64,000 nt of DNA, taken from sequence record NC_134264.1. One strand, 5' to 3'. Below the pieces are notes generated by a model, which saw only the letters and a list, made by a program, of their open reading frames with translations, was not told the DNA's origin and ran no database searches. The DNA comes from Escherichia phage Lindwurm. The first letter of the stretch is position 1; the number at the start of each line of letters is the position of its first letter. Positions 6,133-9,589 of the stretch are shown here, piece after piece. Position numbers and translations under genes: made by a program.

Positions 6133-6900
6133 TTATTCAGCAGCCGCAGCTTTTGCATCCAGTTTAGCACGCTTAGCGGCACCATCATAGTCCTTAGCAA
6201 CCAGACCACGACGAGACAGCATAGATTTAACACCCCGCTCAGACTTACCAGTTTTCTCAGCAATCTCAGCAACAGTCATGTTAACCAGATCCAGACCTTC
6301 TAACAGATCTTCACGAGTTTTAGCACTTGAAGTTTCCTGTACCGGCATAGCAGCAATACGACCTTCACGAAGCAGACTCAGAGCTTTACCACGGATCTGC
6401 TTAATATTGCGACCGAAGTGAGCAGCGATAGCTTCAATAGTAGCACCAGCAACAACCTGATTAACAAAATCAGTTTCTTCATCCGGAGTGAAGGAACGAA
6501 CAGCAGCAGCTTTTTCAGTTGGCTTAACAGAAGCAGTCATTTCCAGACTCAGAATCTTACCTTGTACCTGCTTAGCACCGAACTGACCACCAGCTACAGC
6601 AGCAGCGATTTCAGCATAGGTATACTGACCAGCATGAGCGTTCAGGAAATCAACCAGTTCAGCTTCCTGCTCAGGAGTCCACGGAGATTTCTGCACTTCG
6701 TTAGCTTTTTGTACTTCAAAACCTTCTTTACGCAGTTTAGAGCCAACAGAGCGAGCAGTAACATCTTTGCCGGTTTCCGCAGCCAGTTCAGCAGCGATAG
6801 CAGCTACTTGTTCTTGAGAGATTACAGCAACACCCAGAGCAGTGGCTTTTGCTTTCAGAGACTCGGTTACACCTTCTACGTTCCAGTTCAGTTTAGACAT
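6133..6900 (-). CDS. hypothetical Ala-rich protein with three internal helix-rich repeats
   Basis: 255-aa ORF; repeats of type TGKxxxxRSVGSKLRKEG; resembles 9626..10036 product. Confidence 0.5.
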   Translation of the reverse strand: MSKLNWNVEGVTESLKAKATALGVAVISQEQVAAIAAELAAETGKDVTARSVGSKLRKEGFEVQKANEVQKSPWTPEQEAELVDFLNAHAGQYTYAEIAAAVAGGQFGAKQVQGKILSLEMTASVKPTEKAAAVRSFTPDEETDFVNQVVAGATIEAIAAHFGRNIKQIRGKALSLLREGRIAAMPVQETSSAKTREDLLEGLDLVNMTVAEIAEKTGKSERGVKSMLSRRGLVAKDYDGAAKRAKLDAKAAAAE

Positions 6901-7675
6901 TATTATTTTTCTCCAATAGTTCTTTAATCGACAGGATTTCTATCCCATTCGTTTCGGCTTTCTTATAAGATGAGGAAGAACGCTTCGATTCATCCTCACA
7001 GATTAGGTATTTGACGTCTTTAGTAACGGATTTCTTAACCGTATATCCTAGACCTTCTAAATAGTTTGTTGCATCCGTTCGATTTGCAAAATCTTGCAAA
7101 GATCCGGTAATACATACCGCGATTCCATTTGGCTGGGCAATTAATTCATCTGTAATGATGACGTCAGCTTTAGTGCCCTTAATACCGGTTGAAAATTTCC
7201 ACGGTAGTTCGATAACATCCTTGCCTTGTGGGGAATTTAGCCAGGCTTTATAATTTTCTCCAGCCTTGCCGTCAGCCTTCACATCGTGGAAGCTAGTGCA
7301 ATTTTGGGATAATTTCTTTGCTGCAACCTCTCCAATTAGAGAGATTCCTAAAGAACCGAGAACTGAACCAAAGTCAATGTCTCCGCGAACTTTAGTATTT
7401 AATTCGCTAATTAGCTTAGCGGCAACCTTGCTACCCACGGCTCTAACCAAATCTTCTTCGGTTAGGTAAAATAGTTCTGAAATCTTCGTCAGCTCCAGCT
7501 TCTCAATAGTTTTTGGGCCAAAGCCCTTTAACTTCATTTTTGTACAGAAGTTCTCAATTAACTTACTTGATTGCGCTGGACAGTTGGACTTATTCCGACA
7601 GAATAATTGTCCGTTGACAAGATCTAGCTTAGAACCACAAGAGGGACATTGTGTTGGAATTTCGATTTTCATCAA
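6893..7675 (-). CDS. NAD-dependent DNA ligase, C-terminal half (Zn finger, HhH, BRCT-like)
   Basis: CPSCGSKLDLVNGQLFCRNKSNC zinc finger at N-terminus; follows ligase adenylation/OB ORF. Confidence 0.7.
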   Translation of the reverse strand: MMKIEIPTQCPSCGSKLDLVNGQLFCRNKSNCPAQSSKLIENFCTKMKLKGFGPKTIEKLELTKISELFYLTEEDLVRAVGSKVAAKLISELNTKVRGDIDFGSVLGSLGISLIGEVAAKKLSQNCTSFHDVKADGKAGENYKAWLNSPQGKDVIELPWKFSTGIKGTKADVIITDELIAQPNGIAVCITGSLQDFANRTDATNYLEGLGYTVKKSVTKDVKYLICEDESKRSSSSYKKAETNGIEILSIKELLEKNNNV

Positions 7676-7702
7676 ATTTCTTCCTTATCAATTTATATAA
7701 AT

Positions 7703-7731
7703 ATTATAGCAAGTATTTAAGCATTTAGCAA
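7703..7731 (-). promoter_or_regulatory. early-type sigma70 promoter (TTGCTA-17-TATAAT) inside the ligase split
   Basis: minus-strand TTGCTA and TATAAT with 17-nt spacer, followed by ATAAATTGATAAGGAAG box. Confidence 0.5.
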
Positions 7732-7874
7732 CTACAATTTTAACTAACTTTGCTTACCCTCGCCATAACTTTCTATCCCTCAACTGAATGATAATAGTAT
7801 ATACCTAAGCGGCGAAAATGTCAATAACCACTTTATAATTCCGATATGGTAGATGGGTAGCAAAGGGTTATGTA

Positions 7875-8846
7875 TTAATCGTATACTCGCTCTACTATGC
7901 ACGGGATTACACCACCAGCACGAATTACTCGAATCTGGCAACCGATCTCTAGATCGAGAGAGTTAATATAATCAACGTTATTAAGGGTCGCTTTAACAAT
8001 TGTAGCATCATCAATAATTACCGGCTCGAAATAACCAACTGGAGTTACTTTACCAGAAGCCCCTACCTGCCACTCAACTTTAGTAAGAGTTGTAATCTCG
8101 CCTTCTTCATCCTCTTTAATAGCGAATGCTCCACGAGGGAATTTATTAGTCCAGCCTTCACGGAAGAATTTGTTGTTGTCATTAATACGAACAACTTTAC
8201 CGTCCGTCGGAATCCATTTAAAGAAGGAACGCACATTAACAACTGTTAAGAAGTCCTCATTCTCTAGCCAAAGCATATCTTTTAAATATGCTTCTGTAAT
8301 ACCTACAGATTCAGCAGAACACTGGATACCGTATGCAACGAAGATTAGACCACCTTCTCCGATACGTTGTACGAAATCATCACTATCTTTGAGGTTAATA
8401 GCACCAGAGGCAAAGTTACGTTTATTTTCTACTTCTTTTGTAATTAGAACTTCACCAGTGATTTGAGTAGGTACTTTTTGGGAAATCTTTTTAGGAATAT
8501 TCAGCAATCTTACGTTGCTTGTGACATCATTCCCTAGAATACCATTACCACGAGTTAGTGCTTGAACAAATTCTCCATTAATATATAACAGAGAAATCGC
8601 ACAACCATCTAACTTATCAGTTTCTACTTGACCTAATGGGTTAAACGGAGGTTTATCCCCACGATTATAATAAACTTTCTGTAAAGAATACATACGATAC
8701 AGATGTGGGATATCTCCTTTAGGCCCAATCTCTTCCTCTATTGGGAATCTTTTAATAAGACGATCATATTCTTCATCAGAGATTAAAGACATTCCCTGGT
8801 AATACGCTTCTTGACAACGTTTAATAAAGTCTTTTACATTAGTCAT
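7875..8846 (-). CDS. NAD-dependent DNA ligase, N-terminal half (adenylation domain plus OB fold)
   Basis: KxDG adenylation motif in KLDGCAISLLY; C-terminus VIRAGGVIPCIVERV resembles OB-fold end of LigA. Confidence 0.75.
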   Translation of the reverse strand: MTNVKDFIKRCQEAYYQGMSLISDEEYDRLIKRFPIEEEIGPKGDIPHLYRMYSLQKVYYNRGDKPPFNPLGQVETDKLDGCAISLLYINGEFVQALTRGNGILGNDVTSNVRLLNIPKKISQKVPTQITGEVLITKEVENKRNFASGAINLKDSDDFVQRIGEGGLIFVAYGIQCSAESVGITEAYLKDMLWLENEDFLTVVNVRSFFKWIPTDGKVVRINDNNKFFREGWTNKFPRGAFAIKEDEEGEITTLTKVEWQVGASGKVTPVGYFEPVIIDDATIVKATLNNVDYINSLDLEIGCQIRVIRAGGVIPCIVERVYD

Positions 8847-8877
8847 TTATTTATATCTCTCATCAATTTATATAAAT

Positions 8878-8906
8878 ATTATATAACAAAACTGAGTTGA
8901 AAGCAA
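8878..8906 (-). promoter_or_regulatory. early-type promoter
   Basis: minus-strand TTGCTT-17-TATAAT followed by ATTTATATAAATTGATGAGAG. Confidence 0.5.
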
Positions 8907-8933
8907 ATACATTTATAAAGAAAAAGCCAAGAA

Positions 8934-9242
8934 CTAGGCATTCTTGGCTTTGAGTTCTTCAGCTCGTTTCTGTACTTCATGTAAAACCTCAGATTCGCTA
9001 AGAATCTGTGTAAACGCATAGAAAAGCTGTGATGTTGTTTCTAGGGTGTAAGGAAAAGAGAAGCCAGATTTCGTTGGAAACCACTCATCATTAATATCAA
9101 GAAGCCAGTAACGAATACCCATGTATAGATTCCCACGAAATTCAGATACTGTTAATCTTACTTGTTCTCCCTCCTTCTCCCAAAGTATGATGGACTGGTC
9201 ATCAACGTGTCCTTCATAGTTTTGATTTACCTGTTCGCTCAT
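8934..9242 (-). CDS. hypothetical protein
   Basis: 102-aa ORF. Confidence 0.5.
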   Translation of the reverse strand: MSEQVNQNYEGHVDDQSIILWEKEGEQVRLTVSEFRGNLYMGIRYWLLDINDEWFPTKSGFSFPYTLETTSQLFYAFTQILSESEVLHEVQKRAEELKAKNA

Positions 9243-9260
9243 TTACATATCCCAAATACA

Positions 9261-9282
9261 CAAAAAGCCCCATATAGGGGCT
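9261..9282 (-). terminator. hairpin terminator
   Basis: GCCCC-ATATA-GGGGC stem followed by U-run on minus strand. Confidence 0.45.
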
Positions 9283-9292
9283 AATTGGTTTC

Positions 9293-9589
9293 TTATCGGC
9301 CTACTGGAGAAGCACGATCTAACTCTGATTGGAGGCTAGTCACACGACGGACTTTCTCGACAGGAATAAAACGGAAGCTATCATTAGTACGAGAGAAGAC
9401 AAGGATTTCATCATCTTTCGCTTTACGAATACGTTCACGTTTAATACGCTCAGCCAGATATTTATCTTGGGCTGGATCAAATTCCATCGTACCCTGAAGG
9501 TACGTGGTTCCTTTCTGACGAAGTTTCTCGTAATGAAGATAAAACTCACCAAATTTTTCACATTGTGCGATAATTTCAGCTTTGGTCAT
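9293..9589 (-). CDS. hypothetical protein
   Basis: 98-aa ORF. Confidence 0.5.
   Translation of the reverse strand: MTKAEIIAQCEKFGEFYLHYEKLRQKGTTYLQGTMEFDPAQDKYLAERIKRERIRKAKDDEILVFSRTNDSFRFIPVEKVRRVTSLQSELDRASPVGR

What the first reader, a model, noticed from the sequence alone, without database searches (positions are those of the whole stretch)
6893..8846. NAD-dependent DNA ligase encoded as two ORFs separated by a 199-nt promoter-containing spacer
The adenylation/OB-fold part (7875-8846) and the Zn-finger/HhH/BRCT part (6893-7675) are separate ORFs split exactly at a domain boundary. The spacer carries a full early-type promoter on the coding strand. The enzyme is either made as two polypeptides or the split is the scar of an inserted element.
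Basis: partly seen in the sequence, partly recalled or inferred. Interest (0 to 1): 0.45.

Follow-up and report, generated by a model that had tools for sequence, protein, structure and literature searches.

The report
Split two-subunit DNA ligase of T5-like phage
This T5-like phage encodes its NAD-dependent DNA ligase as two separate genes (ligA and ligB) with a promoter-bearing gap between them, a real but already described and annotated feature of phage T5 and its whole family, so nothing here is new.

Summary
The window is a Tequintavirus (96.5% identical to T5 here). ORF 7875-8846(-) carries domain Ia, the adenylation domain and the OB fold. ORF 6893-7672(-) carries the 4-Cys Zn finger, HhH and BRCT. 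Together they tile full-length LigA profiles with no domain missing. The break falls in the short variable OB/Zn linker.

The gap is 202 nt, because ligB starts at ATG 7672, not TTG 7675. It has stops in all frames, no RNA-family hit and no unusual fold. It holds two tandem sigma70 promoters, not one. T5's record labels them P-K28b and P-K28a.

This is T5 ligA/ligB (T5.116/T5.117). [quoted passage not shown] Each half has its own PHROG. A Providencia-phage homologue with both chains is in the PDB (9HU3/9I5I).

The split, at the same residue, and the tandem promoters upstream of ligB are conserved across Demerecviridae. In Vibrio phages whole genes sit between the halves. Fused ~560-aa relatives exist in metagenomes.

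Best reading: two polypeptides form one ligase, and ligB heads its own ligB-D5 transcription unit. Already known; low interest.

The parts
7875..8846 (-). ligA (subunit A): compact domain Ia, nucleotidyltransferase (adenylation) domain with KLDG (K78, codon 8615-8613), and OB fold. 323 aa; ends ...RAGGVIPCIVERVYD*.
   Evidence: Pfam aden and OB above cut-off. phrog_3359 E 8e-176, full length. PDB 9HU3_A E 5e-104. T5.116 ligA. Motif positions.
7673..7874 (-). 202-nt non-coding spacer (GC 31%) between ligA stop and ligB ATG. Stops in all three frames. The 3' ~170 nt are almost invariant among Tequintavirus and Epseptimavirus.
   Evidence: 13 variable columns of 202, 11 of them in the first 31 nt; identity >=99% in 211 records, against 1 record for the 2.4-kb region. 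No Rfam hit. RNA fold z = -0.78.
7796..7824 (-). Upstream spacer promoter, TTGACA-17-TATACT; equivalent to T5 'promoter P-K 28b'.
   Evidence: 11/12. T5 annotation at the homologous position of an identical spacer. TTGAC-17-TATACT (TATAAT in Vibrio phage 70E37.6) conserved in Klebsiella, Pectobacterium, Aeromonas and Vibrio phages.
7703..7731 (-). Downstream spacer promoter, TTGCTA-17-TATAAT with TG extended -10; equivalent to T5 'promoter P-K 28a'.
   Evidence: 10/12, TG present.. Conserved family-wide as TTGCT...TTG(c/a)TATA(A/C)T.
7687..7708 (-). -10 plus initial-transcribed module TATAATATTTATATAAATTGAT. One of 9 copies of the early-promoter cassette in the window.
   Evidence: 9 matches, 0 expected. 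(each copy sits shortly upstream of an RBS and an apparent ATG start). It contains the ATATT that Klimuk et al. 2020 (PMC7472727) place in the discriminator region of all T5 early promoters; here it overlaps the last two bases of the -10.
7680..7686 (-). Shine-Dalgarno AAGGAAG for ligB, 7 nt upstream of ATG 7672.
   Evidence: Read from the sequence. Invariant in the close relatives.
6893..7672 (-). ligB (subunit B): 4-Cys Zn finger (C9, C12, C25, C31; 7648-7580), HhH domain and BRCT. 259 aa. Its stop overlaps the D5 start (ATGTCTAA, 6893-6900).
   Evidence: Pfam BRCT above cut-off. phrog_3498 E 3.5e-136. TIGR00575 positions 388-651. PDB 9HU3_B E 3e-79 and 2OWO 402-529 / 585-666. T5.117 ligB. 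Overlap.
8878..8906 (-). ligA's own promoter of the same cassette family: TTGCTT-17-TATAAT followed by ATTTATATAAATTGAT, then GAGAG.
   Evidence: Sequence. Identical 22-nt module at 8862-8883. T5 annotates a promoter here. Conserved in relatives.
8923..8951 (-). Terminator-like hairpin plus T-run ending the preceding gene, upstream of the ligA promoter. No such site lies in the ligA-ligB spacer.

Best explanation
This is the known two-subunit NAD+-dependent DNA ligase of T5-like phages.

Shown:
- Subunit A (Ia-NTase-OB) and subunit B (Zn-HhH-BRCT) are separate genes.
- Together they contain every LigA domain.
- The cut lies in the short, variable OB/Zn linker.

Inferred mechanism:
- LigA reacts with NAD+ to form the lysyl-AMP intermediate at K78.
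- LigB associates with it non-covalently and supplies the Zn/HhH DNA clamp needed for the nick-binding and sealing steps.
- This is the same chemistry as bacterial LigA with one peptide bond missing.

The 202-nt gap is not debris. It is a tandem pair of strong sigma70 early promoters (P-K28b, P-K28a) plus an RBS. It makes ligB the first gene of its own transcription unit. ligB is probably translationally coupled to the replication/late-transcription factor D5, because its stop overlaps the D5 start. ligB is probably also read through from the ligA promoter, since no terminator-like site lies in the gap.

Inferred origin: a compact fused ~560-aa ligase was fissioned once, in an ancestor of Demerecviridae, by acquisition of a promoter + RBS + ATG cassette in the linker-coding region.
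For: Domains and tiling.

Identity with the annotated T5 genes and promoters. Subunit A/B annotations appear across the 442 matching phage records.

Literature:
[quoted passage not shown] 2005.
- The same paper shows that an Ia-NTase-OB fragment of LigN adenylates normally but cannot ligate.
- Subunits A and B are named in PMC3632103 and PMC4319617.

Solved structure: PDB 9HU3 and 9I5I hold both chains. Chain B is 100% identical to Providencia phage vB_PreS_PR1/PSTCR5 ligB.

Purifying selection on both halves.

Family-wide conservation:
- Same cut site in Sugarlandvirus, Hongcheonvirus, Shenzhenvirus, Vipunavirus and other Vibrio phages.
- One or two whole genes lie between the halves in Vibrio phages.

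Tandem promoters are conserved immediately upstream of ligB in all these lineages. The downstream promoter belongs to a 9-copy early-promoter cassette family.

Fused relatives of 555-586 aa (up to 46% identity) are colinear with LigA+LigB, and the break falls in a 5-14-aa variable linker.
Against: - No biochemical data on the T5 enzyme or on this phage were found in the searchable library.
- The paper behind 9HU3/9I5I could not be located. It is therefore not known from here whether the complex is stable without DNA or what its activity is.
- Neither subunit shows an added interaction module at the cut, so how the halves are held together is inferred.
- Promoter activity in this phage is inferred from sequence identity with T5 and from T5's annotation.
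- The direction of evolution (fission versus fusion) was not tested with a tree.
- Each half alone, and their summed score (173.7 + 104.8 bits), falls below the NCBIfam LigA equivalog cut-off of 444 bits.
Confidence: 0.9

Rival explanations
1. The ligase gene is a pseudogene, broken by an insertion. The two ORFs are decaying remnants and the phage relies on host LigA.
For: The gap is extra DNA relative to fused relatives. One relative, GSW6, has a frameshifted ligB annotated as two CDS.
Against: - Differences concentrate at third codon positions in both halves.
- Both ORFs are intact in most relatives examined, from Tequintavirus to Vibrio and Aeromonas phages at ~43-50% amino-acid identity.
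- Catalytic and Zn-binding residues are retained.
- A homologous two-chain enzyme was purified and solved.
Confidence: 0.02
2. A single polypeptide is still made, through a sequencing frameshift, an intron, an intein (cis or trans) or translational bypass of the gap.
For: The halves abut almost perfectly. Only about 6-9 profile positions are unaccounted for.
Against: - Multiple stops in all three frames over 202 nt.
- An identical or near-identical gap in hundreds of independently sequenced genomes.
- No Rfam family (no group I or II intron) and no unusual RNA fold, z = -0.78.
- No intein-sized extra sequence at the LigA C-terminus or the LigB N-terminus.
- ligB has its own RBS, ATG and promoters.
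- The PDB entries list two separate chains of 339 and 248 aa.
- Vibrio phages have whole genes in the gap.
Confidence: 0.02
3. The halves have partly independent jobs. LigB is expressed from its own strong tandem promoters together with D5. It would act mainly as a DNA-binding/BRCT scaffold or regulator, and ligase activity would be gated by subunit availability, for example to leave T5's characteristic single-strand nicks unsealed late in infection.
For: - Separate, stronger-looking promoter input for ligB than for ligA.
- ligB stop overlaps the D5 start.
- The two genes can be separated by other genes.
- T5-like genomes are presumed to be nicked (PMC4319617).
Against: - No evidence of LigB without LigA in any genome examined. 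The two are always neighbours on the same strand.
- All LigA-type residues are retained in both halves.
- No data on expression ratios.
- The promoter cassette in front of ligB is an ordinary member of a family placed before many early genes, so it needs no special explanation.
Confidence: 0.06

Closest known systems
Bacteriophage T5 ligA/ligB (T5.116/T5.117, NC_005859; Wang et al. 2005, as cited in PMC1684257)
   Same: - Same genes in the same order.
- 202-nt spacer 100% identical. ligA 94.9% and ligB 96.8% nucleotide identity.
- Same annotated promoters, P-K28b and P-K28a.
- ligB is followed by D5.
   Different: Only allelic differences: 4 amino-acid changes in ligA and 8 in ligB. This is the same thing in a sister phage.
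Providencia phage vB_PreS_PR1/PSTCR5 two-chain NAD+ DNA ligase, PDB 9HU3 and 9I5I
   Same: Same two-subunit architecture. Chain A aligns over residues 4-323 (E 5e-104) and chain B over 2-256 (E 3e-79), with the same C-terminal and N-terminal ends at the cut.
   Different: A diverged orthologue. In the HMMER alignments it has small insertions in the NTase region and a shorter HhH-BRCT linker. Its publication and functional data were not retrievable here.
Bacterial LigA (E. coli 2OWO; Thermus 1DGS/1V9P), TIGR00575
   Same: Same domain order Ia-NTase-OB-Zn-HhH-BRCT. KxDG lysine and four Zn cysteines are retained, and the profile is tiled end to end.
   Different: - Bacterial LigA is a single ~670-aa chain. 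Here there are two chains totalling 582 aa.
- Ia/NTase is about 50 aa more compact.
- Motif 'DGKVVR' stands where the Thermus chain 1V9P has 'DGVVVK' in the HMMER alignment.
- Scores fall below the equivalog cut-off.
- T5 'ligB' is not the E. coli LigB paralogue. NF005987 matches only the A half, and more weakly than the two best-scoring LigA models.
Fused compact ~555-586-aa NAD+ ligases from metagenomes (P0034, P0044, P0054, P0056, P0061, P0063)
   Same: Same compact subfamily, 39-46% identity to the A half. They are colinear with LigA+LigB over the full length.
   Different: - Single polypeptide with a 5-14-aa linker where T5 has stop + 202 nt + start.
- Source organisms are unknown.
- They are not present at high identity in the annotated phage collection.
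C-terminally truncated LigA-type enzymes (Haloferax LigN-deltaC in PMC1684257; other truncations cited there)
   Same: An Ia-NTase-OB fragment equivalent to T5 LigA self-adenylates with NAD+.
   Different: Those fragments cannot ligate alone. In T5-like phages the missing Zn/HhH/BRCT part is supplied by a second gene.

Membership tests
NAD+-dependent DNA ligase (LigA type, EC 6.5.1.2) | Nucleotidyltransferase domain with motif I KxDG lysine | tested here: met
   PF01653 scores 82.8 bits against a cut-off of 27. KLDG at K78 aligns to KVDG of 1V9P.
NAD+-dependent DNA ligase (LigA type, EC 6.5.1.2) | N-terminal domain Ia that confers NAD+ specificity | tested here: inconclusive
   'YYQG..SDEEYDRL' (residues 15-30) aligns to 'YYVLADPEISDAEYDRL' of 1V9P, but as a weak stretch of 2.9 bits. 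phrog_3869 coverage begins at profile position 9. Cofactor use is not testable here.
NAD+-dependent DNA ligase (LigA type, EC 6.5.1.2) | OB fold following the NTase domain | tested here: met
   PF03120 scores 78.5 bits against a cut-off of 32.9, residues 252-321.
NAD+-dependent DNA ligase (LigA type, EC 6.5.1.2) | Four-cysteine Zn finger, HhH domain and BRCT domain C-terminal to the OB fold | tested here: met
   - C9, C12, C25 and C31 lie in the stretch aligned to 2OWO 402-529.
- BRCT scores 32.7 bits against a cut-off of 21.3.
- HhH: the Pfam HHH_2 hit is sub-threshold (20.9 vs 27), but TIGR00575 positions 388-651 are covered continuously.
NAD+-dependent DNA ligase (LigA type, EC 6.5.1.2) | All domains on a single polypeptide; NCBIfam equivalog score reached | tested here: not met
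   Two ORFs separated by 202 nt with stops in all frames. The halves score 173.7 and 104.8 bits against a cut-off of 444.45. It works like LigA but is not a canonical single-chain member.
T5-type two-subunit NAD+ ligase (phrog_3359 + phrog_3498; T5 ligA/ligB; PDB 9HU3) | Separate A (Ia-NTase-OB) and B (Zn-HhH-BRCT) genes, same strand, A upstream of B, cut in the OB/Zn linker | tested here: met
   Full-length matches to phrog_3359 (E 8e-176) and phrog_3498 (E 3.5e-136). Matches to 9HU3 chains A and B.
T5-type two-subunit NAD+ ligase (phrog_3359 + phrog_3498; T5 ligA/ligB; PDB 9HU3) | Physical A-B complex with nick-sealing activity | not testable with these tools
   Only indirect evidence: both chains co-occur in PDB entries 9HU3 and 9I5I for the Providencia orthologue. 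The primary paper was not found.
T5 early sigma70 promoters (P-K28a/P-K28b class) | -35/-10 hexamers at 17-nt spacing, ATATT in the discriminator region, and a conserved initial transcribed region followed by an RBS | tested here: met
   (hexamers). (9-copy cassette). (the ATATT rule of Klimuk et al. 2020). T5 annotates P-K28b and P-K28a on an identical spacer. The upstream promoter has CTATT (one mismatch) after its TATACT.
T5 early sigma70 promoters (P-K28a/P-K28b class) | Demonstrated transcription initiation in vivo or in vitro at these sites | not testable with these tools
   Rests on T5's record annotation. From my own recollection, unverified here, P-K28a and P-K28b come from the 1980s Bujard-laboratory promoter collection.

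The most novel reading that the evidence does not exclude
The split may be regulatory rather than a neutral frozen accident. ligB sits behind its own hyper-conserved tandem promoters and its stop overlaps the D5 start. The phage could therefore set LigB (and so holo-ligase) levels independently of LigA. That might time nick sealing so that the site-specific nicks of T5-type virion DNA escape ligation, or it might let LigB's BRCT/HhH module serve as a separate replisome scaffold. A weaker variant is that the conserved, AT-rich tandem-promoter gap doubles as a transcription-activated replication origin. No skew signal supports that: the cumulative GC-skew minimum lies near 20 kb, not at 7.7 kb.
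Probability: 0.07. Interest if true: 0.5.

Novelty: already known. Interest (0 to 1): 0.12.

Why it matters
The finding adds little. The split T5 ligase has been in the literature since the 2005 genome paper. It is annotated as subunits A and B in hundreds of genomes, each half has its own PHROG family, and an orthologous two-chain enzyme is in the PDB.

The small added value of this check:
1. A clear statement that the cut site and the tandem promoter pair upstream of ligB are conserved across all Demerecviridae lineages examined.
2. Fused compact relatives exist, which gives a natural comparison for studying how a multi-domain nick-encircling ligase tolerates loss of one peptide bond.
3. The gap is built from the phage's standard early-promoter cassette. 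This suggests a simple route for gene fission, namely a promoter + RBS + ATG cassette landing in a linker.

Tried and rejected
- **Continuous ORF by frameshift:** rejected. All three frames have stops across the gap.
- **Intron, ribozyme or riboswitch in the gap:** no Rfam match at E <= 1. RNA fold z = -0.78.
- **Mobile-element scar:** no terminal inverted or direct repeats flank the gap. The only repeat is the 25-nt promoter module shared with the ligA promoter.
- **Insertions in relatives as remnants of an element in the gap:** the extra 170-460 nt in many relatives lie upstream of ligA, not in the gap.
- **Mini-ORF in the gap:** the sequence ATGGCGAGGGTAAGCAAAGTTAGTTAA (MARVSKVS), preceded by GAGGGA, is invariant in six of the seven close relatives aligned; Tennessee has one substitution, G to A, in the seventh codon. 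The ATG and frame are not kept in Klebsiella, Pectobacterium or Aeromonas phages. Rejected as a conserved peptide.
- **Is the gap uniquely hyper-conserved?** No. The ligA promoter region is similarly conserved, so this is a general property of the promoter cassettes.
- **Replication-origin idea:** no GC-skew inflection at the gap.
- **Literature searches for the 9HU3/9I5I paper or any biochemical study of the two-subunit ligase:** nothing found. The '9HU3' hits were unrelated accession strings.
- **Source of the fused relatives:** tblastn of P0034 against annotated phages returned only split Demerecviridae at under 40% identity, so their source stays unknown.
Full report
**What is there**

On the minus strand, ORF 7875-8846 (323 aa) and ORF 6893-7675 (260 aa from TTG, 259 aa from the adjacent ATG 7672) are separated by about 200 nt.

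The upstream product matches the Pfam NAD-ligase adenylation domain (82.8 bits) and OB domain (78.5 bits). The downstream product matches BRCT (32.7 bits) and, below threshold, HhH.

Against solved structures:
- The A half aligns to Thermus and E. coli LigA through the NTase and OB domains. KLDG aligns to KVDG, and a weak domain-Ia stretch 'YY..SDEEYDRL' is present.
- The B half aligns to E. coli LigA (2OWO) residues 402-529 and 585-666. Its four cysteines (C9, C12, C25, C31) fall in the first of these stretches.

The halves tile full-length profiles with almost nothing missing. On TIGR00575, A ends at position 378 and B covers 388-651 of 652. On phrog_3869, A covers 9-381 and B covers 388-654 of 656.

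**The gap**

Taking the ATG at 7672 as the ligB start, the gap is 202 nt (7673-7874) with GC 31%. That ATG is T5's annotated start, it aligns with the starts in relatives, and AAGGAAG lies 7 nt upstream.

- Every frame has several stops, so no frameshift correction gives one ORF.
- No Rfam family matches.
- The RNA fold is unremarkable, z = -0.78.
- No terminal repeats suggest a transposon scar.

The two best sigma70-like sites in 6600-9400 both lie in the gap on the coding strand. They are TTGACA-17-TATACT (7824..7796) and TTGCTA-17-TATAAT with an extended -10 TG (7731..7703). The scan's overall count is no higher than in shuffles, so the argument rests on other evidence. T5's RefSeq record annotates 'promoter P-K 28b' and 'promoter P-K 28a' at exactly these positions, and the T5 spacer is 100% identical to this one.

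**It is T5 ligA/ligB**

The 2.4-kb region matches 442 phage records, nearly all Tequintavirus or Epseptimavirus. Identity is 96.5% to T5 and 97.9% to Klebsiella phage KPP2018. [quoted passage not shown] In T5 they are ligA (T5.116) and ligB (T5.117), followed by D5 and the DnaB-like D6.

The literature states this explicitly:
- Other papers list subunits A and B as a matter of course.
- Each half has its own PHROG, phrog_3359 and phrog_3498, matched end to end.
- PDB entries 9HU3 and 9I5I contain a 339-aa 'DNA ligase (NAD(+))' chain and a 248-aa 'DNA ligase subunit B' chain, matching the two products at E 5e-104 and 3e-79.
- Chain B is 100% identical to ligB of Providencia phage vB_PreS_PR1/PSTCR5.

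I could not find the associated paper.

**Evidence that two polypeptides are the functional state**

- Differences between this phage and relatives concentrate at third codon positions in both halves. Against misterkot the counts at positions 1/2/3 are 16/7/72 for ligA and 13/1/32 for ligB, with 14 and 11 amino-acid changes.
- The split occurs at the same residue (…IP-x-I-V/I-…* then M-K/Q-I-x-I-P-x-x-CPxCG) in Sugarlandvirus (Klebsiella), Hongcheonvirus (Pectobacterium), Shenzhenvirus (Aeromonas), Vipunavirus and other Vibrio phages. ligB amino-acid identity falls to about 43% across these.
- In the enterobacterial and Aeromonas lineages the gap is 178-202 nt of non-coding DNA.
- In Vibrio phage pVp-1 it is 1135 nt and holds a hypothetical gene plus a DprA-like gene. 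In Vibrio phage 70E37.6 it is 443 nt and holds one small gene.

Halves that stay intact while other genes come and go between them must be expressed and selected as separate proteins.

A functional analogy comes from an Ia-NTase-OB fragment of Haloferax LigN. It adenylates normally but cannot ligate without the Zn/HhH/BRCT region. The inferred division of labour is that LigA does step 1, and LigB supplies the DNA clamp for the later steps.

**What the gap does**

The gap is far better conserved than the coding DNA around it.
- It is 100% identical to T5, KPP2018 and oldekolle, whose ligA genes are 94.5-97.4% identical.
- Only 13 of 202 columns vary among eight genomes, and 11 of those lie in the first 31 nt.
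- 211 records are >=99% identical to the gap, against 1 for the whole 2.4-kb region.

Aligning the distant relatives shows both promoters conserved immediately upstream of ligB in every lineage. This includes the Vibrio phages, where the promoters stay with ligB rather than with the end of ligA. The tandem promoter therefore belongs to the ligB transcription unit.

The downstream promoter is an ordinary member of a cassette family with 9 copies in this window against 0 expected. The cassette reads TTGCTn-17-TATAAT-ATTTATATAAATTGAT-gaGAGg…ATG, and each copy sits just upstream of an RBS and an apparent start codon. One copy drives ligA itself (8862-8906). The module contains the ATATT that Klimuk et al. 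2020 place in the discriminator region of all T5 early promoters; here it overlaps the end of the -10 hexamer. The ligA promoter region is similarly conserved, so the gap's conservation is a general property of these cassettes rather than something unique.

No terminator-like site lies in the gap, so read-through from the ligA promoter is likely. The ligB stop overlaps the D5 start (ATGTCTAA, 6893-6900), which suggests translational coupling.

**Origin**

A search of 1.84 billion cluster representatives found about 55 clusters of 305-340-aa A-type proteins. Interleaved with them were 555-586-aa proteins at 39-46% identity. Six of these were fetched. They contain both halves and are colinear with LigA+LigB. 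Where T5 has stop + gap + start, they have a variable 5-14-residue linker.

The compact Ia/NTase region is shared by fused and split forms, so compactness is a subfamily trait unrelated to the split. The simplest inference, not tested with a tree, is a single fission in a Demerecviridae ancestor. It would have been caused by a promoter + RBS + ATG cassette landing in the linker-coding region. The fused forms are not in the annotated phage collection at useful identity.

**Verdict**

The feature is already known and annotated, so interest is low.

The only less ordinary possibility left open is that separate promoter control of LigB has a regulatory purpose, such as gating nick sealing or giving LigB an independent scaffold role. 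I give this about 7%. An origin-of-replication role for the gap finds no support in GC skew.

Noticed in passing
window 7687-7708(-), 8862-8883(-), 32056, 39293, 40439, 42537, 45706, 48031, 55517 (+): A nine-copy family of a near-identical early-promoter cassette: aaaaatgtAnTTGCTn-17-TATAAT-ATTTATATAAATTGAT-gaGAGg…ATG. Each copy lies just upstream of an RBS and an apparent start codon, and 0 matches are expected by chance. It resembles the classic T5 P-N25-type promoter as I recall it.
   Followed up: partly
L002 753-941; L003 754-1227; L004 754-1026; L011 552-740; L012 551-751 (upstream of ligA; equivalent to window ~8847-8860): Many relatives carry one or two extra small ORFs (62-90 aa, hypothetical). 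They are inserted right after the ligA promoter/RBS cassette, at the '...GAGAGg' point, and so share that promoter. This window and T5 lack them. It is a moron-like variable slot.
   Followed up: partly
L007 865-1844 (Vibrio phage pVp-1); L009 1551-1847 (Vibrio phage 70E37.6): In Vibrio Demerecviridae whole genes lie between ligA and ligB: a hypothetical gene plus a DprA-like recombination-mediator gene in pVp-1, and a 98-aa hypothetical in 70E37.6. The tandem promoters remain directly upstream of ligB.
   Followed up: partly
L011 1910-2690 (Salmonella phage GSW6): ligB is 781 nt and is annotated as two overlapping CDS, consistent with a 1-nt indel. This is either a sequencing error or a genuine ligB frameshift in that phage.
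   Followed up: no
L012 1918-2721, repeat_region 2209-2240 (Salmonella phage rokbiter): ligB is 24 nt longer (804 vs 780), and a 32-nt repeat_region is annotated inside the gene.
   Followed up: no
window 7741-7767(-): A mini-ORF ATG-GCG-AGG-GTA-AGC-AAA-GTT-AGT-TAA (MARVSKVS) with GAGGGA 9 nt upstream lies between the two spacer promoters. It is invariant in six of the seven close relatives aligned and has one base change in phage Tennessee. The start and frame are not conserved in Sugarlandvirus, Pectobacterium or Aeromonas phages.
   Followed up: yes
window 6893-6900(-): The ligB stop codon and the D5 start codon overlap (ATGTCTAA), which suggests translational coupling of ligB with the D5 DNA-binding/late-transcription factor.
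   Followed up: partly
hits H40, H106 (Listeria phage LM 4-11-1 / 4-14-1), H61 (Campylobacter phage A148), H72 (Klebsiella phage vB_Kpn_AM_K6, 261 kb): GenBank records labelled as Listeria or Campylobacter phages carry 95-100% T5-like ligase-region sequence. A 261-kb 'Klebsiella phage' record carries a Sugarlandvirus ligB. These are likely mislabelled hosts, contaminant fragments or chimeric assemblies.
   Followed up: no
window ~20000: The cumulative GC-skew minimum lies near 20 kb: skew is negative from 1 to 20 kb and positive after. This probably reflects a switch in transcription direction, since ligA, ligB and neighbouring genes read on the minus strand and the promoter cassettes at 32-56 kb are on the plus strand.
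   Followed up: no
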